A stretch of DNA of 64,000 nucleotides from an uncultured Bacteroidales bacterium (GTDB taxonomy: Bacteria; Bacteroidota; Bacteroidia; Bacteroidales; Bacteroidaceae): contig CALEFD010000019.1 of NCBI GenBank assembly GCA_937876995.1, forward strand, positions 7,858 through 71,857, given 5' to 3'. A program made the translations under genes and the position numbers. Below the pieces are notes generated by a model. That model did not search any database. It was not told the DNA's origin and was given only the letters and a program-made list of their open reading frames with translations. Positions 1 to 29,812 of the stretch are shown here, piece after piece; the first letter of the stretch is position 1, and the number at the start of each line of letters is the position of its first letter.

Positions 1-465
1 GAAACAGAAGTGGTAGGTCCCGGAATAAACAGCAAAATGGATGAGATTCGTGCAGCATACGGCATACTTAACCTGCGTCAGGTAGATGCAGCTATAGAAG
101 CACGTCATAAGATAGCTGTGGAGTACCGCAAAGCATTCAGAGGATTGGAAGGAATCACATTTATGGACGATATGCCGGGAGTAAAACACAACTACTCCTA
201 TTTTCCAATCTTTGTAGATGCCGATAAATATGGCGAAACACGAGATGAGCTGTACTTCCGTATGCGGGAAGAAAACGTATATGGACGCAGATATTTCTAT
301 CCGCTTATAAGCGAATTTGCAACATACAGAGACCTGCCAAGCGCATCGAAAGAGAACCTGCCAAACGCACATAGAATGGCAGATTCCGTTATCTGCCTGC
401 CTATGCATCACGAACTTAGTGACAGCGATTTAGTAAGAATTATCGATACTATAAAAAGAGTATGA
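1..465 (+). CDS. DegT/DnrJ/EryC1/StrS-family PLP-dependent sugar aminotransferase, C-terminal fragment (5' end lies outside the window)
   Basis: Frame 1 is open from base 1 to TGA 463-465. The translation ...GINSKMDEIRAAYGILNLRQVDAAIEARHKIAVEY...ICLPMHHELSDSD resembles the conserved C-terminal half of DegT-type aminotransferases. The stop overlaps the next start (ATGA). Confidence 0.75.
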   Translation, partial: ETEVVGPGINSKMDEIRAAYGILNLRQVDAAIEARHKIAVEYRKAFRGLEGITFMDDMPGVKHNYSYFPIFVDADKYGETRDELYFRMREENVYGRRYFYPLISEFATYRDLPSASKENLPNAHRMADSVICLPMHHELSDSDLVRIIDTIKRV

Positions 466-1673
466 CAATAATAGTTTTAGCAGGAGGTTCAGACCAGATT
501 GCCCTTATAAACGAACTAAAAAAGAGAGGGCATTACACCGTTCTGGTGGATTATTTTGAAAATCCCCCTGCAAAAATGTATGCAGACAAACATATTGTTG
601 CCAGCACTTTAGATACCGACAGAGTAAAAGAGATTGCTATTTCAGAAAAAGCAGATCTTATATGCACAGCATGTACAGACCAGGCACTTCTTTCGGTTGC
701 AAAAGTATCGGAAGAATTGGGATTACCCTGCTATATATCGTACCAGACAGGTTTGAATGTAACCAACAAACTTTACATGAAGAAGGTATTGGTTAATAAC
801 AACATACCTACATCCAGATATGTCATTTTGGACAAAATGGACAGCGAAGCGCTAAAAGATTTCAGTTGTCCGCTGGTAGTAAAACCTGTGGATTGCAATT
901 CATCAAAAGGTGTAAAAAGAATAGATAACATAGAAGAATTGCCTACCTATTTGAACGAAGCCATCAATTATAGCCGCACAAAAACAGCTATTGTAGAAGA
1001 GTTCAAAGAGGGCACAGAGATTTCTGCCGATTTTTACATAGAAAACGGAGTTGCCAAATATCTGTCGGCAACCACATCACTGAAAATCAAGAACAGAAAA
1101 TCGTTCACCATACTTTGCAGTGATTACCCGGCAATTAACAATAGCCAAAAGGAAAAATTAACCACTATCGTTTCTCAGATTGCAAAAGCATTCAATCTGG
1201 ATAATTGCCCCATGTTAGTACAACTCATTGCCAATGGAGACGACATGTGGGTATTGGAATTCAGCGCAAGAATGGGCGGTGGTTCAAAACACAAGCTAAT
1301 AAAAGTGCTATCGGACGTAGATATTATGTCGGTCTATGTGGATAGAATTTTGGGTGATTACCCATCGATACATCCATCTGAACCTGTAAAGTATTGCAAA
1401 ATGATATACATATACTGCAAACCGGGTATCTTTAATTATGTAGAAGGCTTTGAGAGTTTGCAGAAAGAGGGCATCATAGACACTTACTTCCATTACAAGA
1501 CAAGTGGAATGGAGATACATGGTTCAGAAACCAGTAGTGACAGACCTGCGGGTTATCTTATAACAGCATCTACTGCAGAAGAGTTAGCCCATAAACTACA
1601 ATATGCCGATTCCCATTTGGCGGTTATATCGGCAGATGGAGAAGATATAATGTTACACAATCTGTTATCATAA
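462..1673 (+). CDS. ATP-grasp domain ligase (carboxylate-amine ligase type)
   Basis: 403 aa. N-terminal Rossmann-like pre-ATP-grasp segment (IIVLAGGSDQIALINELKKRGH). ATP-grasp core motifs VVKPVDCNSSKGV, IVEEFKEGTEISADF and VLEFSARMGGG. Translationally coupled to the upstream aminotransferase. Confidence 0.7.
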   Translation: MTIIVLAGGSDQIALINELKKRGHYTVLVDYFENPPAKMYADKHIVASTLDTDRVKEIAISEKADLICTACTDQALLSVAKVSEELGLPCYISYQTGLNVTNKLYMKKVLVNNNIPTSRYVILDKMDSEALKDFSCPLVVKPVDCNSSKGVKRIDNIEELPTYLNEAINYSRTKTAIVEEFKEGTEISADFYIENGVAKYLSATTSLKIKNRKSFTILCSDYPAINNSQKEKLTTIVSQIAKAFNLDNCPMLVQLIANGDDMWVLEFSARMGGGSKHKLIKVLSDVDIMSVYVDRILGDYPSIHPSEPVKYCKMIYIYCKPGIFNYVEGFESLQKEGIIDTYFHYKTSGMEIHGSETSSDRPAGYLITASTAEELAHKLQYADSHLAVISADGEDIMLHNLLS

Positions 1674-1683
1674 GATATTTGGT

Positions 1684-2760
1684 ATGAAAGTAGCAATCAT
1701 TGGAGCGGGCAACGGAGGGCAGGCTATAGCAGCATATCTGGCAATGAAAGGATGCGATGTCTCACTAAGCGACACCGATGCAACACGCATAGCCAGACTG
1801 CAAGAAAAAGGAGGCATTGAACTGACCGGTAAAATAGAGGGTTTTGCCAAAATCTCTCATTTTTCCACAGATTCTGCACAAACCATTGCAGATGCAGATA
1901 TTATTATGGTGACAACCACTGCAAATGCGCATAAAGCTGTAGCAAAACATATAGCACCATTCATTGCCGACAATCAGATTATAGTTCTTAATCCCGGCAG
2001 AACCTGCGGAGCACTGGAATTCAAACAGACACTTACAAAATACGGATGTAACAAAAAATACTATCTGGCAGAAGCTCAAACACTTGTTTACGCCTGCAGA
2101 ATAGTCGAAGATGGTATAGTCAACATAATTGGCATAAAAGACGAAGTACTCTTTTCCGCACTGCCTGCATCCCACACAGACCACATACTCAACACTATCG
2201 CCCCCTACTACCCCTGTTTTACAAAGGCAGAAAATATTCTGCGTACAGGATTAGAGAATATTGGTGCTATTTTTCATCCTTGCGTATGTCTGTTCAATGC
2301 AGCTACCATAGAACGACACGATGAGTTCTGGTTCTACAGAGATATAACCGAACAGGTTGCCAAATTCATTGAAAAGTTCGATGCTGAAAGACTTGCTGTG
2401 GGTAAAGCATACGGAATAGATTTACTGAATGTTACAGATTGGATAAAATTTGCATACAACGACACAAAAGGCGATACTCTATGTGAACGTATGAAGAACA
2501 ATCCGGCTTATCACGATATCAAAGCCCCGGGCAGCATCTTTACAAGACAACTGTTTGAAGATATTCCTACAGGAGTTCTGCCCATAATGGAGTTAGGCAA
2601 AGCCGCCGGAATTAAGACTCCGCTATTGGAATCAATTGTAAACATAATAGAGAACCTATTGGAAATGGATTTCCGTACAGAAGGTCGCACGCTCTCCAAT
2701 TTAGGTCTGAACGGTATGACCAAAGAGGAAATCATAAACTACATCAGCAATGAAATTTGA
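1684..2760 (+). CDS. NAD(P)-dependent opine dehydrogenase family protein (octopine/nopaline/carboxyethyl-norvaline dehydrogenase-like)
   Basis: 358 aa. GxGxxG fold (VAIIGAGNGGQAIAAYLA). Along its length it recalls Arthrobacter opine dehydrogenase: ILNPGRTCGALEF, NIGAIFHPCVCLFNAA, DAERLAVGKAYG, NPAYHDIKAP, EDIPTGVLPIMELGKAAGIKTPL, DFRTEGRTLSNLGLNG. Confidence 0.8.
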   Translation: MKVAIIGAGNGGQAIAAYLAMKGCDVSLSDTDATRIARLQEKGGIELTGKIEGFAKISHFSTDSAQTIADADIIMVTTTANAHKAVAKHIAPFIADNQIIVLNPGRTCGALEFKQTLTKYGCNKKYYLAEAQTLVYACRIVEDGIVNIIGIKDEVLFSALPASHTDHILNTIAPYYPCFTKAENILRTGLENIGAIFHPCVCLFNAATIERHDEFWFYRDITEQVAKFIEKFDAERLAVGKAYGIDLLNVTDWIKFAYNDTKGDTLCERMKNNPAYHDIKAPGSIFTRQLFEDIPTGVLPIMELGKAAGIKTPLLESIVNIIENLLEMDFRTEGRTLSNLGLNGMTKEEIINYISNEI

Positions 2761-4618
2761 CATCAGTTCAGAAGATATATTTGGTTTTATCAAGCCTGTA
2801 GTAGATGTTCACACTATGGGTGTCTATACAATAGCCAACCTGCTACGCGATTGCGGGTATAAGGTCATTGTAGCAAAAGATGAAATAAACAGTTCCATTG
2901 AAAAGGTACACAAACTAAACAATTACACTCTTGTAAAACAATGGATTACCCACAATAGAATAAGCCGATTGGGATTCAGTTACCGATTAGATCCACAAGA
3001 GGGTGCCGATATGTTTCTAAGACTATATCATCTGCTAAAGGATGATAATATGTTTGCCGAACAGGGAGGAGAGATAAAATCCATCTGGTTTGCCGGTCTT
3101 CCTGATACCTGTGCCATTGTAAAGGGCAAAACCAATGGCGCAGTACAAGTATTCCCCGGTAACGAAATGCCGGAAGAATCTTTGCGTGCATTAGGTATTC
3201 CAGAAGATTCATTACCTAAATCTCTGAAGAGTCAAAACGAATACGATGATTTCAGAATAGCTTTTGCAAAGAAACTTATAGAACGCGAAGCGTGGAAGAT
3301 AGAGCCCGCACCTGACCACTATGGCTATAATGAGTGCGGAACAGAGAAAGACACCTACAAAGCCAGATTGGAATATGCCCGCAGCCACCATTCACTGCCC
3401 ATAATACGTACCCACTCAGGCCCTTATAACCCAAACAGGAAAGAGGCGCTGAAAGAGTACAATTCCTGGTGCAAAGATTTGGCTGAATCAAAGCTACTGG
3501 ATGTTCTTTCCATAGGAAGTTCCCAACTGACACAATCAAATTTTGGCGAAGATTGGGAAGACAAACCCAACGGAGGTGGTATTCCGGTAAATTCAGAAGA
3601 AGAATATAGAACCATTAAAGAGAATGCCTCACCTATGCTGGTGCGCACATACGCAGGTACTAAAAATGTACCGGAACTGGCTAAAATTCACGAACGTTCA
3701 CTTAACATTTCGTGGCATGCCCTGTCGTTCTGGTGGTTCAATGAACTTGACGGACGCGGGAAAAACACCCTTTTAGAAAATCTGGAAGAACATTTTGAGA
3801 CCGTCAGATACATAGTCTCCACAGGAAAACCGGTAGAACCAAATGTGCCACATCACTTTGCATTCCGTGGCGCAGACGATGTAACCTACATTGTTTCCGG
3901 TTTTTTGGTAGCAAAAGCATTAAAGAGACTTGGAGTTAGGGAGATGATATTGCAAAATATGCTGAATACTCCCAAATACACTACAGGCGTACAGGATCTG
4001 GCAAAAGGCCGAACTTTAATTAAATTGGTTCGCGAACTGGAAGACGACACCTTTAGAGTAAGCATTCAGTCACGTGCCGGATTAGACTATTTTGCTCCGG
4101 ATTTAGAAGAAGCAAAAGTACAATTAGCCGCAGTAACCTGCCTAATGGACGATCTGGAACCGGACAATGAAAACAGTCCTGAGATAATACACGTTGTAAA
4201 CTACAGCGAAGCGGTACGTTTAGCCACACCACCTATTATTAAAGAGAGCATAAAAATCACTCTTAATGCACTCCATTCATACAGATTTGCAAAAAAGATG
4301 GGCCAGGTTCCAAATATGACATATGATAAAGATGTAGAGGAACGCTACAAATCTCTTCTATATGATTCTCGCGCAGCTATCAGATTATTAGAAGAGAACA
4401 TTCCCAATCTATACACTCCGCAAGGCTTTTACAGAGTATTCAAAGAGGGTTTTCTGGCAGTTCCATATCTTATGGACGAACATAAGAAATATCCTAAAGC
4501 CACTATGTGGAAGACTGCACTAAAAAACGGAGGTATATGTGTTGTAGATGATGATGGCAAAACCATATCCACAGAAGAGAGATACAGATACATTATAAAT
4601 AATTTTGAGCAACTGTAA
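2750..4618 (+). CDS. Cobalamin-binding (DxHxxG) domain protein fused to a roughly 450-aa C-terminal domain; possible fused methylaspartate(glutamate)-mutase-like enzyme
   Basis: 622 aa. The N-terminus VVDVHTMGVYTIANLLRDCGYKVIV fits the B12-binding DxHxxG Rossmann-like domain. The C-terminal part (VRTYAGTKNVPELAKI ... VEPNVPHHFAFRG ... VSGFLVAKALKRLGVREMILQN) loosely parallels, in both order and spacing, conserved blocks I recall from the glutamate mutase E subunit. The start overlaps the upstream stop by 11 nt. Confidence 0.4.
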   Translation: MKFDISSEDIFGFIKPVVDVHTMGVYTIANLLRDCGYKVIVAKDEINSSIEKVHKLNNYTLVKQWITHNRISRLGFSYRLDPQEGADMFLRLYHLLKDDNMFAEQGGEIKSIWFAGLPDTCAIVKGKTNGAVQVFPGNEMPEESLRALGIPEDSLPKSLKSQNEYDDFRIAFAKKLIEREAWKIEPAPDHYGYNECGTEKDTYKARLEYARSHHSLPIIRTHSGPYNPNRKEALKEYNSWCKDLAESKLLDVLSIGSSQLTQSNFGEDWEDKPNGGGIPVNSEEEYRTIKENASPMLVRTYAGTKNVPELAKIHERSLNISWHALSFWWFNELDGRGKNTLLENLEEHFETVRYIVSTGKPVEPNVPHHFAFRGADDVTYIVSGFLVAKALKRLGVREMILQNMLNTPKYTTGVQDLAKGRTLIKLVRELEDDTFRVSIQSRAGLDYFAPDLEEAKVQLAAVTCLMDDLEPDNENSPEIIHVVNYSEAVRLATPPIIKESIKITLNALHSYRFAKKMGQVPNMTYDKDVEERYKSLLYDSRAAIRLLEENIPNLYTPQGFYRVFKEGFLAVPYLMDEHKKYPKATMWKTALKNGGICVVDDDGKTISTEERYRYIINNFEQL

Positions 4619-5656
4619 ATGGGAACAGATTATAAATATTTGGTTGGCATACGTTGCTTTACATATAACCAATCTGCATATATATCGGATGCTTTAAACG
4701 GTTTTGTATCCCAGCAGACCACCTTTCCATTTGTGATAATGGTGGTAGATGATGCATCTGCCGATGGCGAACAGGATGTGATCAAATCTTTCATTACCGA
4801 TAATTTTGATGGCAACACCACAAAAGATGAAAGCAGAGATTATGCCGATATCACATTTGCGCAGCATAAAACCAACAAGAACTGCTATATAGTTGCCATG
4901 TTTCTGCATCAGAACCTATACCGCATAGGAGAGAACGCAAAGAAACTGGACTATCTGTCTGAATGGCGTAACTGCTGTAAATATGAATCTATCTGCGAAG
5001 GCGACGATTTCTGGTGTCATCCATATAAGCTGGCAGAACAGGTAAATTATATGGAGACACACCCTGAAACCGGCCTATGCTACACACCTGCCAAAGCCGA
5101 CAACAACGGCAGAAACTACACCAAAGGCAGCGAATATCGCGGATATGGTCACCTGCTGCAGAACAATATGATACCCACGCTGACCGTTCTGTACAGAACC
5201 GAACTGTTTGACCGTTACTATACAGAGATAAAACCCGAGCAGTACAATTGGAAAATGGGCGATTACCCTATATGGTTGTGGATTGCAGCAAAAACAGATA
5301 TAGGATTTATAGATAAGATTACAGCCACATACCGGGTTCTTCAGGAATCGGTAAGTCATAGCACAGATATTGATAAGACCATCTCTTTTATAGAGTGCAA
5401 ACGCAGTATAAGCATATTCTTCAACAATCTCTTTAACCACGCCAACAAAAAGATTGCATCAAAGATAAATGACAAATCATACTGGAAAATGTTTGAAACA
5501 TATCTTATGGCGTACCGTATGGAGAATGCCATAGAGTTGTATAACAGCCACTGCAAACAGTTTACTCTTGCGCACAAAGCAAGAGGATTTGTGCTGTTGC
5601 ACTTCAGCAACTACAGAAAAAAGAGCTGTGAAAGGTGGAGAATGCGCAAAATTTGA
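4619..5656 (+). CDS. Family 2 glycosyltransferase
   Basis: 345 aa. N-terminal GT-A signature (RCFTYNQSAYISDALNGFVSQQTTFPFVIMVVDDASADGEQDVI) and a DxD-like EGDD. TAAATG junction with the previous gene. Confidence 0.75.
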   Translation: MGTDYKYLVGIRCFTYNQSAYISDALNGFVSQQTTFPFVIMVVDDASADGEQDVIKSFITDNFDGNTTKDESRDYADITFAQHKTNKNCYIVAMFLHQNLYRIGENAKKLDYLSEWRNCCKYESICEGDDFWCHPYKLAEQVNYMETHPETGLCYTPAKADNNGRNYTKGSEYRGYGHLLQNNMIPTLTVLYRTELFDRYYTEIKPEQYNWKMGDYPIWLWIAAKTDIGFIDKITATYRVLQESVSHSTDIDKTISFIECKRSISIFFNNLFNHANKKIASKINDKSYWKMFETYLMAYRMENAIELYNSHCKQFTLAHKARGFVLLHFSNYRKKSCERWRMRKI

Positions 5657-5668
5657 TACTTTAGCACT

Positions 5669-7525
5669 ATGAAACCTAATGTTAGCGTAATAATTCCTGT
5701 TTACAATACAGAAAAACTGTTGTCACGCTGTTTGAAGAGCGTGACAGAACAGTCATTGACCAACATAGAGATTATTTGCGTTAACGATGGTTCCACCGAT
5801 AATTCTCTTGACGTTCTACAAAAGTGGGCAGATAAAGACAACAGAATAGTTGTTATTAATCAGGCTAACGGCCGTCAGGGCAAAGCCCGTAATGCAGCAA
5901 TGGCCGTTGCCAAAGGTGAATACATAGGTATGATAGATAGCGACGATTACATACCAGCCAACTATTTTGAAAAGCTTTACAATGCAGCTGTTACCAATAA
6001 TGCAGAGATTGCCATTTGCGGTATTATAAAAGAGAAGCCTGCAGGTAACCGCACTGTTATAGAGTTCAAGGAAAGCACTGTTGCCACCACCACACAAGAG
6101 AAACTGCAAGTATGCAAATGTCCTCCCGAGTTTCATCCTGTAAACAAGTTATATAGCAAGGAGATGTTGGAGCGTATAGGACTAAGATTTGCAGAAGGAG
6201 TACAATATGAAGACGTCATGTTTGTTTTTCGCGCAATCTGCGAAAGCAACAGATTGGTTACTGTGCCGGACATCTGCTACAGATATGTATTGAACAGCAG
6301 TTCCACAGTAAAATCAAAACAGACTGAGGCCAAACAGTTGCAGAAATACAGTGCCCATAAAGCCATGACAGATTATGCAGAACAAAACGGCATTACCATA
6401 CCAAACAGATACAAAAACCTTACAGTAACACATAAATCTATAAGTGGTATCTGTTTGTGGAAAATCAAAGAGAAGAACAACAAACGTACTCTGCGCCTTT
6501 TTGATGCACTTCCGGTCTGGAGCTGGGAAAAAACTGAAGAGAACGCTTTTAACGCACCCATAGATTTAGTCTATATGTGGGTAGATGGTAACGACCCTCA
6601 GTGGCGTGCCAGGCGCAACAGCTACCTGAACGAGACAGAGAGTGAAACATCGGCAAACAACAGCGAAGCCCGCTGGATAGAAAACGATGAACTAAAATAT
6701 TCACTTCGTTCAGTAGAGCTATTTGCTCCGTGGATAAACAGTATATACATAGTAACCGATAATCAGTCTCCCAAATGGCTTAATACAGATAATCCCAAAA
6801 TACACATTTTAGACCATAGAGAGATACTTCCGGCAGATGCTCTGCCCACATTCAGTGCCACTGCCATAGAGAGCTGTATAAGCAATATCCCCGGACTGAG
6901 CGAATACTTTATTCTGGGAAATGACGATCTGATGCTTACTGCTCCCGTTACACAGACCGACTTTTTCACAGAAAATGGCCTTCCTATAGTACGTCTTCGT
7001 AAAGCTGCATTCAACAAACGCAAAGCCCACAAGAAGGGAAACTATCACATAATATTGGACAGGATGCAGAATTTGGTAGCAGAGAAGTATGGCAAAAATA
7101 TCTTCCATGCCCCACACCACTGTTTCGATTCATACCGTAAAAGTATATACAACCACTGTATAGAAGATATGCAGGCAGAATGGAACCATACTGCCCATAA
7201 CAGATTCCGCAACAATTCCGATATGCACAGAAGCTATATTGGTTACTATATGATTGCAACCGGCAAAGGCAAATTGCATAAAGTAGGACGATACGACCTG
7301 TTCAAAAGTTTTGGCAGCAAGATCAAGGCATTCTTCTGCGGAGAATATGGTTCGTATTCGCGCTGTATTCCAATAACCACTCCAAATTTTGACAAGATAC
7401 TTAATAGATATAATCCGCTGATGATCTGCCTTAACGACGGAGAAAATGCAACCGATAACGACCGCAAACGTATGGTGGAATTTCTGGAAACCCATTTCCC
7501 ACAGAAAAGCAGTTTTGAAAAATAA
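5669..7525 (+). CDS. Bifunctional fusion: N-terminal GT2 glycosyltransferase plus C-terminal Stealth-family hexose-1-phosphate transferase
   Basis: 618 aa. GT2 block VSVIIPVYNTEKLL...ICVNDGSTDNS...IDSDDY. Stealth conserved regions follow: CR1 VYMWVDGNDPQW, CR2 NDELKYSLRSVELFAPWINSIYIVTDNQSPKWL, CR3 YFILGNDD, CR4 around FHAPHHCF. Confidence 0.75.
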   Translation: MKPNVSVIIPVYNTEKLLSRCLKSVTEQSLTNIEIICVNDGSTDNSLDVLQKWADKDNRIVVINQANGRQGKARNAAMAVAKGEYIGMIDSDDYIPANYFEKLYNAAVTNNAEIAICGIIKEKPAGNRTVIEFKESTVATTTQEKLQVCKCPPEFHPVNKLYSKEMLERIGLRFAEGVQYEDVMFVFRAICESNRLVTVPDICYRYVLNSSSTVKSKQTEAKQLQKYSAHKAMTDYAEQNGITIPNRYKNLTVTHKSISGICLWKIKEKNNKRTLRLFDALPVWSWEKTEENAFNAPIDLVYMWVDGNDPQWRARRNSYLNETESETSANNSEARWIENDELKYSLRSVELFAPWINSIYIVTDNQSPKWLNTDNPKIHILDHREILPADALPTFSATAIESCISNIPGLSEYFILGNDDLMLTAPVTQTDFFTENGLPIVRLRKAAFNKRKAHKKGNYHIILDRMQNLVAEKYGKNIFHAPHHCFDSYRKSIYNHCIEDMQAEWNHTAHNRFRNNSDMHRSYIGYYMIATGKGKLHKVGRYDLFKSFGSKIKAFFCGEYGSYSRCIPITTPNFDKILNRYNPLMICLNDGENATDNDRKRMVEFLETHFPQKSSFEK

Positions 7526-7531
7526 ACAACA

Positions 7532-7558
7532 TTCCCCCGAAAGTTAATTTCGAGGGAA
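7532..7558. terminator. Hairpin between convergent operons (candidate bidirectional terminator)
   Basis: TTCCCCCGAAA (7532-7542), loop GTTAA, TTTCGAGGGAA (7548-7558). This gives an 11-bp stem with one mismatch, located between the stop at 7525 (+) and the stop at 7596 (-). Confidence 0.5.
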
Positions 7559-7595
7559 CGTCCGCAATTGGAATAATTTTGTACAATACTATATA

Positions 7596-10500
7596 TTACA
7601 TCATCACTTTCTTTCTGTTCACTATATAAACGCCGGTAGCATTTACAGGAACTTTTACTGTTGCACCCGGAGCAACATCTACCCTTGCTATAATCTGTCC
7701 CGATGTTGAATATACTGTAACCACTGTTTCAAAATCAAGTGATGATTCTATATAAATCACATGATTCTTTCCATATATATTCAAACCTCTCAACGGAGCC
7801 TGTTCTGCTATATAATCAGCATCACCACCTATTGGAATATATTCAAGAACATCGCCTCTGGTTGGAGCACCCTGGCTGTTTGTTTTCAAATATACTCGGA
7901 ACGGCACAGCAGCCTCTGTGTTATCACTTGATACAGCAAAACCTGAACCGTTTGCATCTATCTTATAGAAAGAACCTGTTTCGGCTGCAGGTGTATTCAA
8001 ATAGCTACCATATAATATATATCCATTTCTATCAGAAGTTAAATCAGATGGATCATATATATCAATATTTTGTTCCTCTTTTGAAACGTAGGTAACTACC
8101 TGAGCGTCCAATTTAACAGGAGCAGGAGTAGCAGTATTCTCTGCCTTAAAATTGCCGGACATATCAAATTCATAATATGCAACACCCGGATAAGCCACTA
8201 TATATGGAACATTCATTGTTGTCCAGATATAATCGCTATAATTACGTGTTGTATTATAATATTCAAAATAGTCGTCAGCATTTGCATCGTCCCTGTTATT
8301 CTTATTGTAATATGTATCGTACAGGAAGCTGTTGCTTACTGCATTATCACCAGATTCGTATCTTGAGTCATAACCTGCATCTCCTGCATTTGACATAGGA
8401 CGTACAAACTTCGCCATCTTCTCAGCACCTGCTGTCTCTACACCGGTGAATCCACGCAACCAGTATTCGTGTCCCTTATCTGAATCACCATAGAAGTGAG
8501 TTATTTCACCCTTGTCCTGTGTAGTCACCAGATCGGCAGTAAATGGCAGTATCAAACCTTCCCAACCATCTGTACTGCTGTTTGCATAATAAGCAGGTCT
8601 GCGCTGATACCACATATAGTAACCCTTACTGAAACTATATTCCTTTGGTGCTGCAAAGTTCTGCTTATCAACCAGGAATTGGCTTGTAGCTGCTCTATAT
8701 TCTCCTTTCTGCTGTTGACCTACAAGATGGAATAGTGGATATTTTGTTTCCTGCACTACATCTACTGTATTGTAACTCTTTTCAGGGTTTACAATCAGTT
8801 CCGGTTCATTCGCAGCGCTCATCAACACACTGTATGAATCTTCCTGTGAAGCATCGGCATATATCAGCATATTTCTGGTAAGTCCCTTTAGATAAATACT
8901 CTTTACTCCATCAAAATCAAGCCATGTATTATTAAATCCTGAACCAACTGTTTCTGTACCTGTAAAGTCTATAGCTGTTACATCCCTGTCTATAACCATT
9001 TCTTTATATGAATCTGTAAAGACAGCATCTCTGTTATAGTGAACCTCTGTAGCTACTTCTGTAGGCGACTGTACGGTATATGCAGGAGCACGGAATACAC
9101 GATTATCTGCATCCGTTACAGCATCTATCAATTCAGGTTCATAATCAATAGTAACATCATCTACGGTATTGGAATAACTGTATGTACGTTTCTCTATACG
9201 CATAGGATTATCATTATGATCCTTACCCTGCACCAGACCGTATGTCAGGTTCTGACCAAAGAAGATGTAATCATCTGGATAGATAGGAACAAATTTAGCA
9301 GCAGTACCTTTATCAGGATTTCCTTCTACATATCTAATTTCACCTACGCGATATGGTACTTCGCCCTTTTCGTAACGGAAATCACCCGTTTTCATTCTCT
9401 CCTCAACATAATCTGCATTTCCGTATAATGAGGATGGGTTCTCTTTTCCTTTAAATTCTTTAAGAGCAGGGAAAGCTGACACTCCGTTATTCTGTAGATA
9501 TGCGCCATCGCTACCGGAACGTTTTGTGCTGTTAGTAATGTCGCTGCGTTTCTGCTGATAGTAACCGTTCAGGTTATATGCTACAGTTCCATCTACAAAT
9601 TCACGTGTTGTTGCAGCAGTTGCGCCATTACTGTAACTACCGGTGTATTGCGTATTATTGTAATATGAATTTACTACAGAACCACCAGATGCAATTACCG
9701 GAGCTGTAGTTGGTGTAGCCGATGTAGATACCCAACTGTTATAAACCGCTCCGCCATTATCCGATATACCAGAAGTGGTGAATGAACCCGTCACACCTAA
9801 GTTATATACATTACCACATAACTTATCAAACAGTGAATGTGTCAAGCCACCTATTGTATAACCATCGCCATGCAGATTACCCTGGAAACAATTGTTAGAA
9901 TCTTCAACATCACCAAGCTTCCACTCTTTACCCTTATAGTACAATGGTTCTACATCACTCTGTAGTATAAACTCTAAGTTTTCGGCATACTGTATCTGTC
10001 CGTTATGTTTACCAACCCCATCAATCAGATGGTTGTTATACAACTCTATCAAGTAGTCAAATTCATTCAACTGAACCTCTGTACCATTTCTGTTTTCAGT
10101 ATATACATCATCATTGATATATATCTTTGGATTACGTAACATTGCAGGTTTTTGGGAATATGTATCAGTTATTGAATCCACAAACATATATTCCGGATGA
10201 TCCAATACATCCTTCAAACGATGATAGTTTGCCACAGAGAGTCTCACCGGACTTGAATAGGTTTTACCAAGATATGTCTTGGCATAGTATGCTATCCAGT
10301 ATTCATTCTGATACCAATAGAGCGGAGCACGTCCCTGCTGATATGCTACACCATTCTTATGAGCAAATGCATCGTGTTCGTTAGAGAATATCTCAAATCC
10401 ACCGCTCATAATTTCGTAAGCGCCCGGTGTTACAGTAGGTGTATTCATACCCAATACATCGCCGGGCAGTACGGTCTGAGGAGTCTGCAGTTCGCCTATC

Positions 10501-13500
10501 TTAGGAACGCCACTTTCAAAATGTACACGGATATTCACAATATGACGTTCTGTAATCTCTTCAAAGTTCACGCCCTCCTGATCGCTCTCTAAGTAGGTAT
10601 ATTCATAAACCACCGTTACTATTTTGTCTTCTGACAAGTCTCTTACATCGGCACTTCTTGGAACATACAGAGTTGATGTTTCAGTTGGCATAGTACCCTG
10701 CACCTGGAAACCTGTCTGCATATTTACCACGTGTTCATCGTAGGAAGCTTTTGTTATAACATCACCAACAGCTATACCTGTACCCTTAGTTTTTTCTGTT
10801 GTAGTTACTTCTGTTAGCTGATACTCTCCATTATCGGAATTAAGTACGTGTAGATTATTTCTATTCGTAAATCCATCAACACATACATAATATACGCCAA
10901 CCTCGGCAAATGAATACTGCATTACCGAACTTGCTGCTGTATTCTCATCTACTTTTAATTTTTCATAAACAGTATCTATCAATACCCTGCCTCGTGTGTA
11001 GTAACTATCGCCCACTTTGAATGTATTCTTAACTACATAGAATGTATTATCTTCACTCAGATGTTCATCTGTAACGTTTACCATTGCGAATTTGCGCTTC
11101 TCATTAGGCAGTTTTTCAAAATTAACATTATTCAGAACTACGTCTTTGGTTATTTCACTCAATGGTTTTCCATCTATATCGCTTATGTCTAAATCCGTTA
11201 CGGTCAAATTGGTCTCTCTAATGTATTTAGCGGTATAATCCACGCGCGTAGGACCACTGTATCTATTACCATCGTTTTCTGTATTAGGATCAACGTCTGC
11301 CGAAGGATCGTACAAATTTAAATTGCCATCAAAATTTGTACTTAACAAATCGAATGCATCTTTATTGAAAGTGAAATTTACACGTTCGTACGGTTGTACA
11401 CCCGCATATTGCAAAGCATCATAACTATTCGTTTCAATAAACAGATGACCACCAAACTTACCTGTTTTAGTACATAACCATGTTTTTGGTGTATCATTAT
11501 CACTGCCATCTATAGAGAAATAGTTCTTGAACTTCGGATTTATTTTTATAAGTTTTGTATATTCGCTAACAGGAATTATATCTCCATTGTAGCACCACTC
11601 CTCTTCGGCCTTTTCGAATGTCTGAATACACAATACCGCTTCCTCCAGATACTCTCTGACTGATGCATTACTTGATCTCTTATAATCGGATTGGGATATC
11701 ACATTACCTGCTGTAACATACATATCTATCTCCTGACTATTTTCGTCTAAGGTCTTGACGTGAATATTCTCTTTTGCTACGTATGCTATTTCAAACTCAG
11801 CTTGTTCTGTTGGTCGTGCTACATTTATATTATCTGCATCGGTAAGCAAATCCTGCTGCTCCTGCCATAGATCATTATTGATAATATCACCTGCATTGTA
11901 TATATACTGACCAAATATACCGCCTGTTACATTCTTAAATGAAGGACCCTGGATATAACTATCTTTTGTATCAGAACTTTCATAGGTTTCCTTATTTATC
12001 TGCATTGGAACACCGGATAACTGTGAATAATAGTCGTCCCATTGAGCAGGATTGTTCATCTTATATGTAAGCAGGAATCCTTCATCCTTACCCATATTAT
12101 TGGTAGGATGGAAGAAGTAAGATACAGGAACCTCCTTAAAAGCGTCCGCAGTTGTACCCTCAGGATCGTGAATCTTCACTTTCACATCACTGCTCTTTAA
12201 TGTCTCATACGCAGAAGGCAATATTACCTTACCTTTCTTATATGCCAAAGCACCAAGATCATTTCCATTTGTATCTTTTGTTTCGCCATCAATATTCAGT
12301 ACATCATCTATACATACGTATGTTGTCTTTGTAAAGAAAGCCTTTTCCGCTTCTGCAAGCCTGTTGTAATCCCAACTGCTTATAGGATCGTTTGTATGGT
12401 AATACTGACCTGCTATTCTAACAGAATCATCTGCTTCCAATTGTCTACCACCATAGTTCAAACCTTCGTAGTATGCATAATAGCTATCGTCAACACTTAA
12501 CAGTTGTAACTTACCATTAGCACCAGCTGTAATGCTCAGAGGGATAGATACCGATTCTGAATATGATTGCGGAGTACCTGTATAAGCAGATATTGTCTGG
12601 TTGTACAAATAGAAATCACCGCGAACATACCAATAGTGAGCCGGCGAAGTTTTATCACCATTATTAGGATAACAATCATCTACAATCTGTTTAAAACTAT
12701 GCACAAAGTTACCGGATGATGCATACTGCTCTGCATCACCTTCATAATTAAAGCGCTTATATGAAACGGCTTCATTGTTTGATTCAGCCAATGTTACATT
12801 ATTGGCTCCTGAATCTTTTCGTGTACCATGAATATTGTCTGCATAGACATAACCACCACCTTCGCCTACAGCTACATTTATAAGGTCAAGCTGAATAACA
12901 CCGGTAATTGGGCCATAATCTTTTTCTCCTGTCTGTTCATCTATATCCTTTACAATTTCAAGCCATACGCCACCGGCTAATGCTATTATATTTGCGCTCT
13001 TACCATTGTTACGGAACTTTGTACCGGCATTTTCAACTTTAAACGCACGGTAGGTTTCATTTTCTCCCGTAGGCTTATATGCATCTTCACCATTTTCAGT
13101 TACTCGTACAGCGTCATAATAATCTACACTGGAAGATACTGCTCCCAACCTGTTCACCACGTTGTATATACCAAAATAACATCCATGGTCTTTTGTTCCA
13201 TCTGAATTGTAACCACTTATTGGATATTTATCCTTAGTGATTTCATTCAATGAGAGTTCATTAAGTCGGTTAATTGTATATAGAGTAAAATCGGCAGTTG
13301 TGGTTTCGCGGTCTCTTGCACCCTTTAATACAACACGGCTGCCCCAAACACCACAGAAATCGGCACGCTGTATAGTGTTAATCATTCTACCTGCATATAG
13401 TGTTGCCAAACCGGCAAGTTTCCATTTACCCTGTTCTTCCGGTGGCATACTACCCCAAACAGAACCTGATATCTGGTCATCCACAACATACCAATGTTTC

Positions 13501-16500
13501 TTATTATTTGCGTCTGTATATTCGTGATTTTCCAAACAAATATACTTCAATTCATAGTATGCCTTTTTTCTTGGGTGCATTTTGGAATAATCATCGAATG
13601 TGATTTCGTGAGTCAGATTATGATAATCTGTACCATAGTTTGTAATATTCAGTTCTCTGTATCCATCTACAAGACTTAAGTTACCATCGCCATAGAAACC
13701 ACCTATGTTTTCTGTACTTACAGAGACCATATCACAATCAAATACATCCACTACCGATGCAGTTACATTACCAAACACAGTCTTAGCATCGGCCGTCATA
13801 ATATCGGTACCCTGAATTACATTACCACCGGCAAATACAGCATTACGTATGGTAATACCCTGTTCATCCATCTTAGCCCAGCGTTCATCATTAGCATACA
13901 GGGTATTCAAGTCTGTACAAGGAACAAAATCACCAGGATTATAACTATTAGAACCTATTTCAAAGTTTTGCAGAGCAACTGTAACCGGTGTTATCAACAC
14001 CTTGCAGTCTTCTGTCAATTTATCACTGGAATCATAATAGTGACCATCACTCTTTTTCTTTCCCTTAACAGAATAGACATAACCAATGTTACCGCCACCA
14101 AATACGTTACCAGCTCCTTCTTTCAGTGTCGCGTCTGTACCCACATTTCCTCTATGCAGATTAACTTCTGTCTTACCAAATACAAATCCGCTTGAATAGT
14201 AGATATTCTCTACCTCTAATGCTCCTGCTAAAGTATAGCTGAATCCGCGACCGCCACCAAATACATCGCGCTCTACTGTACCGCCATACATTGTAACCTT
14301 AGTACTACCTTCAGTAACCGGTTGAGTCCAATCTACCTCTTTAATGACTCCTTCATCAATCTTCATAGTAGCAAAACCTACTGAAGCTATTTCGCCACCA
14401 CCATATAATGAATGACGTATAGTACCTCCATACATCTCTACGTTGGTATTAACAGCCCAAGCTTTATCACCAAAACCACCACCATACAGGTTACCGTTGT
14501 TGGCAAGCAAATTCAGATCGTCCTGACTGTGTAGTTTTACGTTCGGGAAATATTTTCCTGTATTATAATCGTAATCGTAACCTACATAACCGTTATTCAT
14601 GGTAATATTGGTATTGGTTACTTTACCGCGTTCACCACCACCGTATGCAGAACGAAGAACTGCAGGTTTTCCCCAATCGATATCGGCCTCTTCCAATTCA
14701 TTATTTTTATTATATACTTTTTCTGATAAAGCACCATTCACTACCTGCTTTCGTAAACCGATGGTTACATCACTTTCGCCTTCAATATATCCCTCTAATC
14801 CGCCACCAAATACGCGACGCACCTTACCGCCATAGATTTCCAATATAGAGAGTACCTTTTTATCGGAATCAGAAGAAGACAACACTTTCATATTACCACG
14901 GGAACCGCCACCATATATGTCACCTTCCACTATACCGCCCAACAGACTTACGCTTGTTGCGCCATATACTGTAGCTGTTTCACCATAGCCACCACCAAAG
15001 ACATTCTCTTTTACTGTGGCACCCTTTTCAATTATAATGCGGGTATTTCTATATTCCAGGGCAGTTTCAGGGTCAGCATATACCCAGTGAGCATACTTTG
15101 TTGAATTAGTTGTATAATATTCATCCGCATCCGATTTATCATCGTATGCATATCTTACTGTACCGTCTAAAGCGCCACCATATACATTTCTAACTAAAGC
15201 GCCTTTATCCAGAGTAACCAAAGCATAACCTGTCACTGTATTTTTACCATGACCGGAAGCATAGACATCGGCATAATTATCGATAGATTGCATTACAGGA
15301 GCTTTTATCAGCACATTGGTATTCTTTGTAGCACGATACGATTTATTTCCGCCAAACAAACCTTCGCCTGTAATAAAGGCACCGGAAGAAGCGAACTTAA
15401 CATTTGATTGGCCTACATCGCAAGGCAAGCCTTCTTCAAAACCTACACTACCACCATAAATAGCCTTTACTCTGATGGTTGATGTTTCAGGAACAGTAAC
15501 ATTTGTTGTTTCGCAATAACCTTCGGCAAAAGAGCCGCCATAAGCATAACCTATATTACCTGCAGAGAGATTTACATTTGTAGTCTGCGCACCGGATTTT
15601 GCACCTGCACCATAAACGTTCAATCCCAGATTGTTCATTCCATAAACACTTACGTTGGTTGTTCCGCAATCGTAAGATATAGTTGTAGGTAAATCTTTAT
15701 GAGCAGCACCGAAAGTACCACCATATATTTCATCATAATAGCCACTTACTGCATCTACAGTAGTTTTCTCTACGTAAGAATAGTAAGCGCCACCAAATAC
15801 CTTACTAACCAAAGGTCCTGCACCATTTGTTACACGATCCTGATATGAACCTGTAGCAGCCAGATGAACGTATGTATCTTTAACATCAACTATTCCTGTA
15901 GAACCGCTGAAACCTTGTCCACCGCCATAAACAGCACCTATTATCTTATCCGTTTTAGTTGATGGCGATGCTATATGTACAAATGTATTGGCAGTAATAA
16001 AGTTTGTAGCTGTTTCAGTTACCGCTGTATTTAACACAGGATACTTATCTATTTGGAAGTTAGTATAATTATATGCACCATTTGCTCCACCGAATATATT
16101 TCCATGCACTATTCCGGAATAGTACTGAACCATAGTTTGAGCCTTCACATATTTATTACCATAACCATACTGTCCAAAAGAGACAGAGCCTATTACTGTA
16201 CCACCAAAGTCGTTTGCTCCATATACGTTATTTACAATATTGATAGGATTATCACTACCTGCACTCTGTGCAGAGCCTATAACGACTTTTGCTGTACCAT
16301 CAATATCGGCAAAACAGCTGCCACCAAATATGTCATAGAACTTACCACCCTGAACACTTACAGAAGCAGTACCGCCTACATTACCCTGCAATCCTCCACC
16401 ATACACCTTAAATGCGTTGTAATAACCTTCTCCTGGTTGTATTAGATTTTTATCCAGATTAATTGATGTACTTCCGGTTACAGCACCTAATTCACCACCG

Positions 16501-20044: not shown

Positions 20045-20058
20045 CTCTACTTTCCATT

Positions 20059-22235: not shown

Positions 22236-22245
22236 ATAGTTTTAC

Positions 22246-23310: not shown

Positions 23311-23378
23311 ATCTATATTTTAGAGGTTAATAATTCTCTTTCTTCTAAATATTGTTCTTTACTATATCAATTACCTGT

Positions 23379-24440: not shown

Positions 24441-24474
24441 AATTTTTCTGTTTTAGTTATCTCTTTAATTGAGT

Positions 24475-25596: not shown

Positions 25597-25611
25597 TATT
25601 ATAGAAGGTTC

Positions 25612-26667: not shown

Positions 26668-26707
26668 ATTTTTGTTCTTTAAATTTTTTCAGTTATATAA
26701 GTACTTA

Positions 26708-27703: not shown

Positions 27704-27750
27704 ATTATTTTCTCCTTATTATATATTATATGGTTCTATTTTTTCTATTT

Positions 27751-28782: not shown

Positions 28783-28787
28783 TTTCG

Positions 28788-29801: not shown

Positions 29802-29812
29802 ATCTTCTGTAA

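What the first reader, a model, noticed from the sequence alone, without database searches (positions are those of the whole stretch)
1..2760. Opine dehydrogenase plus ATP-grasp ligase plus sugar aminotransferase in a glycan operon: a possible N-carboxyalkyl-amino-acid (opine-type) sugar decoration
A bona fide opine-dehydrogenase-family enzyme is translationally coupled to a DegT aminotransferase and an ATP-grasp ligase, upstream of glycosyltransferases. Opine dehydrogenases reductively condense an amine with a 2-oxo acid. Opine-type substituents such as alanopine or N-(1-carboxyethyl)-lysine are known chemically in some Proteus/Providencia O-antigens. I am not aware of an established genetic basis for them in Bacteroidales. 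The gene set suggests this order: make an amino sugar, attach an amino acid by ATP-dependent ligation, then carboxyalkylate it.
Basis: inference. Interest (0 to 1): 0.6.

Follow-up and report, generated by a model that had tools for sequence, protein, structure and literature searches.

The report
Opine dehydrogenase–B12 mutase glycan-tailoring operon

Summary
The three genes are real, intact and tightly packed. They are a DesI-like sugar 4-aminotransferase, an ATP-grasp ligase, and a true CENDH-type opine dehydrogenase with its catalytic His, Arg and Asp present. Two GT2 glycosyltransferases lie downstream.

It encodes a 622-aa protein with no Pfam family. It has an N-terminal DxHxxG cobalamin domain and a barrel whose best structural match is glutamate mutase GlmE (Z 28.6).

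- In the 80 closest species-level loci that hold this mutase, the opine dehydrogenase lies directly upstream in 69, across several phyla.
- An ATP-grasp ligase is nearby in 55 of those 69, and a DegT aminotransferase in 44.
- All paired dehydrogenases carry the Arg/Gly pair that experiments link to acidic amino-acid substrates.
- A second locus in the same genome has an orthologous DegT followed by a PglD-like acetyltransferase and a remnant of the mutase gene. This suggests the three-gene module is an alternative N-acylation system for the amino sugar.

The opine-type decoration idea is therefore partly supported. The likely order is mutase and dehydrogenase first, acting on a free acidic amino acid, then ligation. 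The pair was noted in 2009 (PMC2667541) and remains uncharacterised. This scan has found the same cassette before on other DNA.

The parts
1..465 (+). 3' part of the DesI-like DegT sugar aminotransferase. The full gene is G000:C19:7150-8322 (390 aa as the longest ORF), and the real start may be an internal ATG.
   Evidence: PF01041 E 3e-97 on the whole protein. The best solved relative is DesI, 2po3, E 1.6e-63. TIGR04427 DesI scores 285 bits, below the 650-bit equivalog cut-off. The PLP-lysine motif SFHATK is visible in the translation.
462..1673 (+). ATP-grasp amide ligase, 403 aa, similar to PurD and to L-amino-acid ligases
   Evidence: Pfam ATP-grasp_4, GARS_A and Dala_Dala_lig_C, with a weak LAL_C2 match. 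PDB matches are 4dim at 1.2e-20 and the L-amino-acid ligase 3vot at 8.9e-12. A homologue lies within 6 kb in 55 of the 69 loci that have the dehydrogenase-mutase pair.
1684..2760 (+). CENDH-type opine dehydrogenase, 358 aa
   Evidence: PF02317 E 4.9e-39. 1bg6 E 2.8e-79 over residues 3-348. R106 is invariant (65/65) and G194 nearly so (64/65). H198, W253, R288, E292 and D293 are invariant in all 65 aligned sequences.
2750..4618 (+). Single-chain cobalamin-dependent mutase-like protein, 622 aa. It has an N-terminal B12-binding domain with D19-x-H21-T-x-G24 and a GlmE-like TIM barrel. It has no Pfam family.
   Evidence: No Pfam or NCBIfam hit. The AF2 model has pLDDT 91.6. Foldseek's best hit is GlmE 1cb7_B, E 2.8e-13. 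VIA-align gives Z 28.6, rmsd 3.2 A over 377 residues. The DxHTxG motif is invariant in alignment A2. A PduO-type adenosyltransferase lies directly downstream in 3 related loci.
4619..5656 (+). GT2 glycosyltransferase, 345 aa. No hydrophobic (membrane) segment was seen by eye in the translation.
   Evidence: PF00535 E 6.7e-10. A homologue lies directly downstream of the mutase in 20 of 69 loci. Translation.
5669..7525 (+). GT2 fused to a Stealth (hexose-1-phosphate transferase-type) domain, 618 aa. It is the last gene of the operon.
   Evidence: PF00535 E 6e-37, Stealth_CR2 E 2.6e-40, plus CR1, CR4 and a weak CR3 match (E 0.003, below its cut-off).
7528..7562 (.). 15-bp-stem hairpin between the operon's end and the convergent giant gene. 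It is a candidate terminator.
   Evidence: Terminator-like site in the consensus scan. This is a pattern match only.

Best explanation
This is a six-gene glycan-tailoring operon.

Proposed steps:
1. A DesI-like aminotransferase converts an NDP-4-keto-6-deoxyhexose, supplied by RmlB elsewhere in the genome, into an NDP-4-amino-4,6-dideoxyhexose.
2. In parallel, the fused AdoCbl mutase and the opine dehydrogenase act together on a free acidic amino acid. The most likely route is a glutamate-mutase-type rearrangement of L-glutamate to a branched 3-methylaspartate-like acid. The dehydrogenase then condenses this reductively with a 2-oxo acid such as pyruvate. The product would be an N-(1-carboxyalkyl), opine-type polycarboxylic amino acid.
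3. The ATP-grasp ligase activates one carboxylate of that acid and forms an amide with the 4-amino group of the sugar nucleotide.
4. The GT2 and GT2-Stealth enzymes put the decorated sugar into a surface glycan.

Shown here: the gene families, the fold, the conserved catalytic and specificity residues, the gene linkage, and the acetyltransferase swap.

Inferred: every substrate, the order of the mutase and dehydrogenase steps, and the acceptor.
For: 1. The opine DH is a true CENDH relative with catalytic residues conserved.
2. The next gene has an invariant DxHxxG motif and a barrel most like GlmE, then the lysine and ornithine aminomutases and methylmalonyl-CoA mutase. The ESM Atlas neighbours are 'cobalamin-binding protein' clusters.
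3. The opine DH lies directly upstream of the mutase in 69 of 80 loci, and elsewhere in the locus in 3 more. In an even sample of 400 other Bacteroidales species, all 7 genomes with the mutase have the dehydrogenase next to it. Zhang et al. 2009 noted the same linkage in 11 genomes.
4. AdoCbl supply: a PduO-type adenosyltransferase sits immediately after the mutase in L008, L016 and L018, and one is present in this genome.
5. Telek et al. 2024 showed that A111R plus N198G switches CENDH from hydrophobic to acidic amino acids. This protein has R106 and G194 at those positions, as do 65/65 and 64/65 of the aligned dehydrogenases (this protein plus 64 from the loci). This fits an Asp-, Glu- or methylaspartate-like substrate.
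6. The pair occurs with no ligase or sugar gene nearby in other phyla, often beside other amide-forming enzymes such as AsnB-like proteins. The acid is therefore probably made free.
7. In the same genome, contig C94 has Wzx, then a DegT 76% identical to this one, then a PglD-like N-acetyltransferase. After that comes an 84-codon remnant of the mutase's 3' end, 75.6% identical in DNA to window 4386-4602. The acetyltransferase sits exactly where ATP-grasp, dehydrogenase and mutase sit here. This points to equivalent roles as N-acylation systems for the amino sugar.
8. Related loci are typical capsule or O-antigen loci, with Bac_transf, Wzx, Wzy, GT4, PglD and epimerases.
Against: - No substrate or product was tested.
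- The mutase is not a sequence-level member of the glutamate mutase family. It has no PF06368 hit, and hhalign against five GlmE sequences gave only 16% probability.
- Its Z-scores for lysine and ornithine aminomutases (25-27) are close to that for GlmE (28.6), so the reaction type is open.
- I could not map the GlmE substrate-binding arginines.
- The window's dehydrogenase keeps Asp30 and Asp32, like NADH-using CENDH, whereas the characterised acid-preferring enzymes preferred NADPH.
- This operon has no flippase, polymerase or initiating transferase, so the final acceptor glycan is unknown.
- Eleven of the 69 pair loci have an ATP-grasp but no DegT within 7 kb.
- The C94 swap argument is comparative, not functional.
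Confidence: 0.55

Rival explanations
1. The ATP-grasp enzyme first attaches an ordinary amino acid to the amino sugar. The opine dehydrogenase then carboxyalkylates the free amine of the aminoacyl-sugar. The B12 enzyme modifies the product or makes the amino acid.
For: DegT, ATP-grasp and the dehydrogenase lie in this gene order with ATGA coupling. Alanopine on Qui4N is a known O-antigen substituent. All 26 loci with a DesI-like DegT also have the ligase and the dehydrogenase.
Against: The dehydrogenase-mutase pair is conserved with no ligase or sugar gene nearby in several phyla. The Arg/Gly specificity pair matches enzymes that act on free acidic amino acids. Characterised opine dehydrogenases of this clade use free L-amino acids.
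Confidence: 0.15
2. The B12 enzyme is not a glutamate-mutase-type carbon-skeleton mutase. It is an aminomutase or another AdoCbl isomerase, and the dehydrogenase traps its amine or oxo product. The decoration would then be a different, unbranched amino acid derivative.
For: VIA-align Z-scores for lysine 5,6-aminomutase (27.1) and ornithine 4,5-aminomutase (25.2) are close to that for GlmE (28.6). Sequence-level similarity to GlmE is marginal.
Against: GlmE ranks first in both Foldseek and VIA-align. No invariant lysine is present in the N-terminal B12 domain. In the aminomutases that domain supplies the PLP-binding lysine (my own knowledge); the invariant columns are listed. The dehydrogenase's specificity pair points to an acidic rather than a basic amino acid.
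Confidence: 0.12
3. The ligase does not acylate the DegT-made amino sugar. It joins the amine of the dehydrogenase/mutase product to a uronic acid or another carboxylate, giving an amide-linked amino acid on a hexuronate as in the Proteus and Providencia lysine-opine O-antigens.
For: Opine-type lysine derivatives are amide-linked to GalA in Providencia rustigianii O14. Eleven pair loci have an ATP-grasp but no DegT within 7 kb. L005 has a UDP-glucose dehydrogenase nearby.
Against: In the C94 locus the module's place is taken by an N-acetyltransferase next to an orthologous DegT. All 26 DesI-like DegT loci also carry the ligase. No uronate-forming gene is in this operon.
Confidence: 0.1
4. The dehydrogenase-mutase pair makes a free metabolite, such as an osmolyte or a metal-binding opine, that is unrelated to the glycan. 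Its position in sugar operons would be incidental.
For: The pair occurs without sugar genes in several phyla. Known bacterial opine dehydrogenases such as CntM make free metallophores (my own knowledge).
Against: The six genes are packed tightly enough for a single operon, with overlaps or gaps of at most 12 nt. A five-gene block from DegT to GT2 recurs in 16 loci, and the ATP-grasp in 55 of 69. The C94 swap also argues against it.
Confidence: 0.06

Closest known systems
N-(1-D-carboxyethyl)-L-norvaline dehydrogenase (CENDH/ArODH) of Arthrobacter sp. 1C, PDB 1bg6, and the acid-preferring metagenomic mODHs of Telek et al. 2024 (PMC10787698)
   Same: The window protein aligns over its full length at E 2.8e-79, about 45% identity by eye from the printed alignment. 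It has the Rossmann motif and the catalytic His, Arg and Asp. It carries Arg and Gly at the two positions that give the mODHs their preference for Asp, Glu and cysteate.
   Different: CENDH has Ala111 and Asn198 and takes hydrophobic amino acids. Neither CENDH nor the mODHs are known to work with a B12 enzyme or in a glycan pathway. The mODHs were assembled from reads without gene context. The window enzyme keeps the NADH-type Asp residues. It is far from octopine DH (E 5.6e-9), and no other opine-dehydrogenase chain appeared in the PDB search at E <= 0.01.
Glutamate (methylaspartate) mutase GlmS/GlmE of Clostridium cochlearium, EC 5.4.99.1, PDB 1cb7 and 6h9e
   Same: It is the best structural match to the barrel: Z 28.6, 377 residues, rmsd 3.2 A, Foldseek E 2.8e-13. 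The window protein has a DxHxxG cobalamin domain. Its length equals GlmS (137) plus GlmE (483), taking the GlmS length from my own knowledge. It is linked to an adenosyltransferase in some loci.
   Different: It is a single chain with the B12 domain at the N-terminus. Identity is only 14-16%. It has no PF06368 match, and hhalign gives 16% probability. No MutL/GlmL-type reactivase and no methylaspartase are adjacent. The context is biosynthetic and glycan-related, not glutamate fermentation. The substrate is unknown.
The 'novel B12-dependent protein family' predicted by Zhang, Rodionov, Gelfand and Gladyshev 2009 (BMC Genomics 10:78, PMC2667541)
   Same: [quoted passage not shown] This matches.
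   Different: The 2009 note covered 11 genomes of Firmicutes, Chloroflexi and Thermotogae, and gave no fold, function or glycan context. I did not compare sequences with their set, so the identity of the two families is inferred from the description.
Alanopine-substituted Qui4N in the Providencia alcalifaciens O35 O-antigen, and N-epsilon-(1-carboxyethyl)-lysine amides in Providencia rustigianii O14 (cited in PMC10609480)
   Same: This is the chemical precedent for an opine-type amino acid attached to a 4-amino-4,6-dideoxyhexose or to a uronate in a surface polysaccharide. The window's aminotransferase is DesI-like, the type that makes Qui4N.
   Different: I found no gene assignment for those substituents in the library, and nothing suggests a B12 enzyme there. 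The Bacteroidales product has not been determined. Its amino-acid part is predicted to be acidic and possibly branched.
PglD/VioB-type N-acetylation of 4-amino sugars
   Same: It has the same predicted role, N-acylation of the DegT product. A PglD-like gene occupies the module's place in the paralogous C94 locus.
   Different: It is a one-step acetyl-CoA transfer, whereas this module needs three enzymes to build and then ligate an exotic acid using ATP.

Membership tests
Opine dehydrogenase (PF02317, CENDH-like) | N-terminal Rossmann dinucleotide-binding motif GxGxxG/A | tested here: met
   GAGNGG at residues 7-12 aligns with GLGNGG of 1bg6.
Opine dehydrogenase (PF02317, CENDH-like) | C-terminal Octopine_DH helical domain above the Pfam cut-off | tested here: met
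   134.2 bits against a cut-off of 30, E 4.9e-39, profile positions 2-149 of 150.
Opine dehydrogenase (PF02317, CENDH-like) | Catalytic His-Asp dyad, plus the active-site Arg and Trp | tested here: met
   H198 aligns with CENDH H202. R288, E292 and D293 align with the CENDH R-x-x-F-E-D motif. H198, W253, R288, E292 and D293 are invariant in 65 sequences.
Opine dehydrogenase (PF02317, CENDH-like) | NAD(P)H-dependent reductive condensation of an amino acid with a 2-oxo acid | not testable with these tools
   Needs an enzyme assay.
AdoCbl-dependent isomerase, glutamate mutase type | Cobalamin-binding Rossmann domain with DxHxxG (base-off/His-on) | tested here: met
   D19-V-H21-T22-M-G24 is invariant in the 12-sequence alignment A2. 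The model shows an alternating beta-strand/alpha-helix domain over about residues 10-135. IcmF chains align from residue 3.
AdoCbl-dependent isomerase, glutamate mutase type | TIM-barrel catalytic domain like GlmE | tested here: met
   Predicted structure only: Foldseek E 2.8e-13, VIA-align Z 28.6 over model residues 197-614.
AdoCbl-dependent isomerase, glutamate mutase type | Sequence membership of Met_asp_mut_E (PF06368) | tested here: not met
   No Pfam hit at E <= 0.01. The PF06368 search of the window's own genome found nothing. hhalign against 5 GlmE sequences gave 16% probability, E 0.0016. I therefore do not file it as a glutamate mutase, only as structurally GlmE-like.
AdoCbl-dependent isomerase, glutamate mutase type | Substrate-binding arginines and glutamate of GlmE | tested here: inconclusive
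   R206 and R220 are invariant across the family. No residue-level structural alignment was available, and the hhalign match covered only the C-terminal half.
AdoCbl-dependent isomerase, glutamate mutase type | Use of adenosylcobalamin | tested here: inconclusive
   Support is indirect. A PduO-type adenosyltransferase lies directly downstream in 3 of 80 loci, and one is present elsewhere in this genome. Cofactor binding was not tested.
ATP-grasp amide ligase | ATP-grasp fold domains above Pfam cut-offs | tested here: met
   ATP-grasp_4 49.8 bits (cut-off 27), GARS_A 39.6, ATP-grasp_3 39.0, Dala_Dala_lig_C 36.2. PDB 4dim E 1.2e-20.
DegT/DesI sugar 4-aminotransferase | Full-length DegT fold with a PLP lysine | tested here: met
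   PF01041 326.5 bits, profile positions 6-359 of 360. The SFHATK motif is in the translation.
DegT/DesI sugar 4-aminotransferase | Equivalog-level identity with DesI (TIGR04427) | tested here: not met
   285.5 bits against a cut-off of 650. DesI is the best hit, so the sugar is probably a 4-keto-6-deoxyhexose, but the exact substrate is not established.

The most novel reading that the evidence does not exclude
An adenosylcobalamin-dependent radical mutase, working with an opine dehydrogenase, makes a previously undescribed branched, opine-type polycarboxylic amino acid. Gut and rumen Bacteroidales ligate this acid onto a 4-amino sugar of a surface glycan. This would be the first B12-dependent step in surface-polysaccharide biosynthesis. 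It would make surface antigen structure depend on corrinoid supply in the gut.
Probability: 0.4. Interest if true: 0.8.

Novelty: new variant of a known kind. Interest (0 to 1): 0.62.

Why it matters
- **Enzymology.** The module would give a genetic and enzymatic basis for opine-type substituents on bacterial glycans. It would also assign a first function to a large orphan family of B12 enzymes. That family was found in 465 of about 185,000 species genomes by a pattern scan and has gone uncharacterised since its prediction in 2009.
- **Gut ecology.** Bacteroidales compete strongly for corrinoids. A B12-dependent capsule or glycan decoration would link surface chemistry to vitamin availability, and with it possibly phage and immune recognition.
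- **Biocatalysis.** The dehydrogenase clade, with its acidic-substrate signature, is of interest for reductive amination of polar amines.
- **Testability.** Cultured carriers exist, for example Prevotella sp. P5-92, Prevotella sp. MGM1 and Clostridium sp. Cult2. The hypothesis can therefore be tested directly.

Tried and rejected
- **Sequence searches of the 622-aa protein.** Searches against the PDB, with the single sequence and with a 25-sequence profile, gave nothing meaningful. Only the predicted fold was informative.
- **hhalign against GlmE.** hhalign of the family against five Bacteroidales GlmE sequences gave a weak collinear match only (16% probability). I could not map active-site residues and dropped that line.
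- **The search for related loci.** The 25-sequence alignment had no usable conserved stretch. A 12-sequence alignment worked.
- **ORF-based survey.** My first ORF-based survey undercounted the dehydrogenase at 63-65 of 78 loci, because the longest-ORF rule extended the mutase ORF over it. I replaced it with tblastn counts.
- **Literature.** Searches for opine dehydrogenase together with glutamate mutase, ATP-grasp plus polysaccharide, B12-binding or cobalamin found no description of the pathway. Searches on opine-type O-antigen genetics found only structural chemistry.
- **Phylogeny.** The requested tree with CntM and octopine/nopaline synthases was not built, because those sequences could not be brought in without typing them. 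I relied instead on PDB search scores: CENDH 270 bits, octopine DH 39 bits, and no other opine-dehydrogenase chain at E <= 0.01.
- **ArnC-like idea rejected.** I considered that the first GT2 might be an ArnC/GtrB-type lipid-carrier transferase. Its translation shows no hydrophobic C-terminal segments by eye.


Full report
**Observation**

The window starts inside a gene. Locating the window in its genome (G000:C19:7858-71857) and reading the upstream 7.8 kb shows a six-gene operon on the + strand.

| Gene | Window coordinates | Size | Key evidence |
|---|---|---|---|
| DegT aminotransferase | -707 to 465 | 390 aa | PF01041 E 3e-97 |
| ATP-grasp ligase | 462-1673 | 403 aa | ATP-grasp Pfam families |
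| Octopine_DH-family dehydrogenase | 1684-2760 | 358 aa | PF02317 E 4.9e-39 |
| Protein with no Pfam or NCBIfam family | 2750-4618 | 622 aa | see below |
| GT2 glycosyltransferase | 4619-5656 | 345 aa | PF00535 |
| GT2-Stealth fusion | 5669-7525 | 618 aa | PF00535 plus Stealth regions |

Genes overlap or are at most 12 nt apart. DegT and ATP-grasp share ATGA. The dehydrogenase starts 10 nt after the ligase stop. The 622-aa gene starts 11 nt before the dehydrogenase stop.

Upstream lies a divergent pnp gene. Downstream lies a convergent giant gene, with a hairpin in between. A 99% identical locus comes from a Bacteroidaceae MAG from water-buffalo cecum.

**The dehydrogenase**

It aligns over its full length with CENDH of Arthrobacter (1bg6, E 2.8e-79). 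It matches scallop octopine dehydrogenase only weakly (E 5.6e-9). No other opine dehydrogenase appears in the PDB search at E <= 0.01.

The catalytic His (H198, equivalent to CENDH H202) and the R-x-x-x-E-D motif are conserved. In an alignment of this protein with 64 dehydrogenases from related loci, H198, W253, R288, E292 and D293 are invariant.

Telek et al. 2024 showed that two spatially coupled positions set the amino-acid preference in this clade. CENDH has A111 and N198 and takes hydrophobic amino acids. The acid-preferring metagenomic enzymes have Arg and Gly there. The double swap reverses specificity between L-Phe and L-Asp. Those enzymes prefer L-Asp, L-Glu and cysteate, with pyruvate as the oxo acid.

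Counting along the printed alignment, the window enzyme has R106 and G194 at these positions. R106 is found in 65 of 65 aligned sequences and G194 in 64 of 65. This is the best available pointer to an acidic L-amino-acid substrate.

**The gene the finding left out**

The 622-aa protein begins with D19-V-H21-T-M-G24, the DxHxxG cobalamin-ligand motif. The motif is invariant among relatives down to 42% identity.

The family is large and strongly conserved. More than 2,700 clusters were found at 90% identity, and the top hits are 73-78% identical. At 50% clustering, 448 representatives matched. It is annotated only as hypothetical.

A high-confidence AlphaFold model (pLDDT 91.6) matches the catalytic subunit of glutamate mutase best:

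| Structure | Foldseek E-value | VIA-align Z |
|---|---|---|
| Glutamate mutase GlmE (1cb7_B) | 2.8e-13 | 28.6 (rmsd 3.2 A over 377 residues) |
| Lysine 5,6-aminomutase | 3.5e-9 | 27.1 |
| Ornithine 4,5-aminomutase | 1.1e-8 | 25.2 |
| Methylmalonyl-CoA mutase | 2.7e-7 | about 20 |

ESM Atlas neighbours are 'cobalamin-binding protein' clusters, some carrying B12-binding or Met_asp_mut_E domains.

At the sequence level it is outside the GlmE family. It has no PF06368 hit, and hhalign gives 16% probability. I therefore call it GlmE-like, not a glutamate mutase.

A PduO-type cob(I)alamin adenosyltransferase gene follows it directly in three related loci. The window's genome has one elsewhere, along with other B12-binding proteins. 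No invariant lysine occurs in the B12 domain. From my own knowledge of the PLP-dependent aminomutases, this argues mildly against that chemistry.

**Linkage**

A scan of one genome per species found 465 genomes with a relative of the mutase. I examined the best 80 loci by tblastn.

- The dehydrogenase ends within -90 to +200 nt of the mutase start in 69 loci.
- It lies 1-2.7 kb upstream in 3 loci and is absent in 6. Two loci lack upstream sequence.
- Of the 69 loci, 55 have an ATP-grasp homologue within 6 kb.
- Of the 69, 44 have a DegT within 7 kb. In 26 of these the DegT is at least 50% identical to the window's, and all 26 also have the ligase.
- In 20 of the 69, the GT2 homologue lies directly downstream. 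Sixteen have the whole five-gene block.

The loci come from Bacteroidales, Flavobacteriales, Clostridia, Bacilli, Deltaproteobacteria, Armatimonadota, Atribacteria and Gracilibacteria.

Outside Bacteroidota the pair often stands with no ligase or sugar gene within the distances checked. Its neighbours there include asparagine-synthase-like amidoligases or a PF04199 cyclase.

In an even sample of 400 other Bacteroidales species, 7 carry the mutase, and all 7 have the dehydrogenase next to it. More distant dehydrogenase homologues (25-34% identity) occur without it.

This linkage was already reported for 11 genomes by Zhang et al. 2009. [quoted passage not shown] I found no later characterisation.

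**Glycan context and the swap**

Related Bacteroidales loci are ordinary capsule or O-antigen loci. They carry Bac_transf initiating transferases, Wzx, Wzy, GT4, PglD-type acetyltransferases and epimerases/dehydratases.

Two main layouts recur:
- DesI-like DegT, ATP-grasp, dehydrogenase, mutase, GT2. This is the layout in this window.
- Bac_transf, ATP-grasp, dehydrogenase, mutase, then a more distant DegT.

The window's DegT is closest to DesI (2po3, E 1.6e-63; TIGR04427 at 285 bits, below the equivalog cut-off). The genome encodes RmlB. An NDP-4-amino-4,6-dideoxyhexose is therefore the likely product.

The genome also holds a second locus on contig C94. It reads Wzx, then a DegT 76% identical to the window's, then a 217-aa PglD-like acetyltransferase. 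After that comes an 84-codon, frameshifted remnant of the mutase's 3' end, 75.6% identical in DNA to window 4386-4602. Between the two homologous flanks, the window has 3.9 kb (ATP-grasp, dehydrogenase and most of the mutase). C94 has 0.68 kb (the acetyltransferase).

The simplest reading is that the two inserts are alternative ways of N-acylating the same kind of amino sugar. This is inference, but it comes from the same genome and does not depend on the co-occurrence counts.

**Mechanism proposed**

1. DegT makes the NDP-4-amino sugar.
2. The mutase and the dehydrogenase make an unusual acid from a free acidic amino acid. My preferred version is glutamate to a 3-methylaspartate-type acid, followed by reductive condensation with pyruvate. 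That second step would also pull the unfavourable mutase equilibrium, by established knowledge of glutamate mutase. The opposite order, with the opine formed first and then rearranged, is chemically possible and not excluded.
3. The ATP-grasp enzyme is PurD-like and L-amino-acid-ligase-like. It activates a carboxylate and forms the amide with the sugar amine.
4. GT2 and GT2-Stealth transfer the sugar.

A weak argument for 'mutase first' is that mutase-only loci exist (6 of 80). By contrast, close dehydrogenase homologues without the mutase were not clearly seen.

The operon lacks a flippase, a polymerase and an initiating transferase, so the acceptor glycan is unknown.

**Comparison with known systems and verdict**

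Alanopine is found on Qui4N in Providencia alcalifaciens O35, and carboxyethyl-lysine amides in P. rustigianii O14. I found no gene assignment for either.

The reading 'opine-type sugar decoration' is partly supported. The enzymes and the context fit. However, the obligatory partner is a B12 mutase, the substrate is probably acidic, and the order of steps is probably different.

The module is an undescribed variant of glycan N-acyl tailoring, built from known enzyme superfamilies. This scan has met the same cassette repeatedly on other DNA. I reached the B12/GlmE reading independently, before opening those notes. I used two leads from the notes, the 2009 paper and the acidic-substrate paper, and checked both myself.

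Noticed in passing
G000:C94 (L106:6977-9057, minus strand): A second glycan locus in the same genome has an orthologous DegT (76% identical at protein level) followed by a PglD-like acetyltransferase. After that comes an 84-codon frameshifted remnant of the B12-mutase 3' end. It looks like a cassette replacement of ATP-grasp, dehydrogenase and mutase.
   Followed up: yes
window 7596-18986 (-) and 19010-30916 (-): A giant 3,796-aa ORF has no Pfam hit. It is preceded on its strand by eleven tandem ORFs of about 350 aa. Earlier notes of this scan read these as a type V pilus operon ending in a T9SS cargo protein. I did not examine them.
   Followed up: no
L001:7150-7210 (window -707 to -647): The longest DegT ORF starts at an ATG whose first 16-19 codons lie before the Pfam match. 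A near-consensus Bacteroidetes -7 box (GACTTTTG) sits inside them at L001:7178-7185. The real start is therefore probably the ATG at L001:7199 or 7207.
   Followed up: partly
L013, L026, L029, L039, L047 (around positions 5500-10000): A third layout of the cassette has the DesI-like DegT, then two divergent ATP-grasp genes (21-27% identical to the window's). A 314-369-aa protein lies between them; its representative (L013) has no Pfam family. The dehydrogenase and mutase follow. This suggests a two-step ligation variant.
   Followed up: no
L057, L058, L062, L073 (Rikenellaceae MAGs): Mutase homologues occur without any opine dehydrogenase in the locus. A 727-729-aa protein follows them; the L058 member is a TonB-dependent receptor by Pfam. 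This may be a different use of the mutase, or a link to corrinoid uptake.
   Followed up: partly
L074, L085 (Syntrophaceae and Deltaproteobacteria MAGs), positions 8300-13200: Here the called dehydrogenase ORFs are 554-556 aa, which may be a start-codon artefact of my ORF caller. An asparagine-synthase-like gene follows the mutase directly, matching the 2009 description of the family's neighbourhood.
   Followed up: partly
G088:C12:90476-92338: The closest mutase homologue in the 400-genome sample (78% identical) has one in-frame TAG. This could be a sequencing error, a pseudogene or a recoding event.
   Followed up: no
L001:344-1321 (-), upstream of the window: An AbiH-family abortive-infection gene (PF14253, E 8e-48) lies near the contig start. 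A small winged-helix-domain protein is encoded next to it.
   Followed up: no
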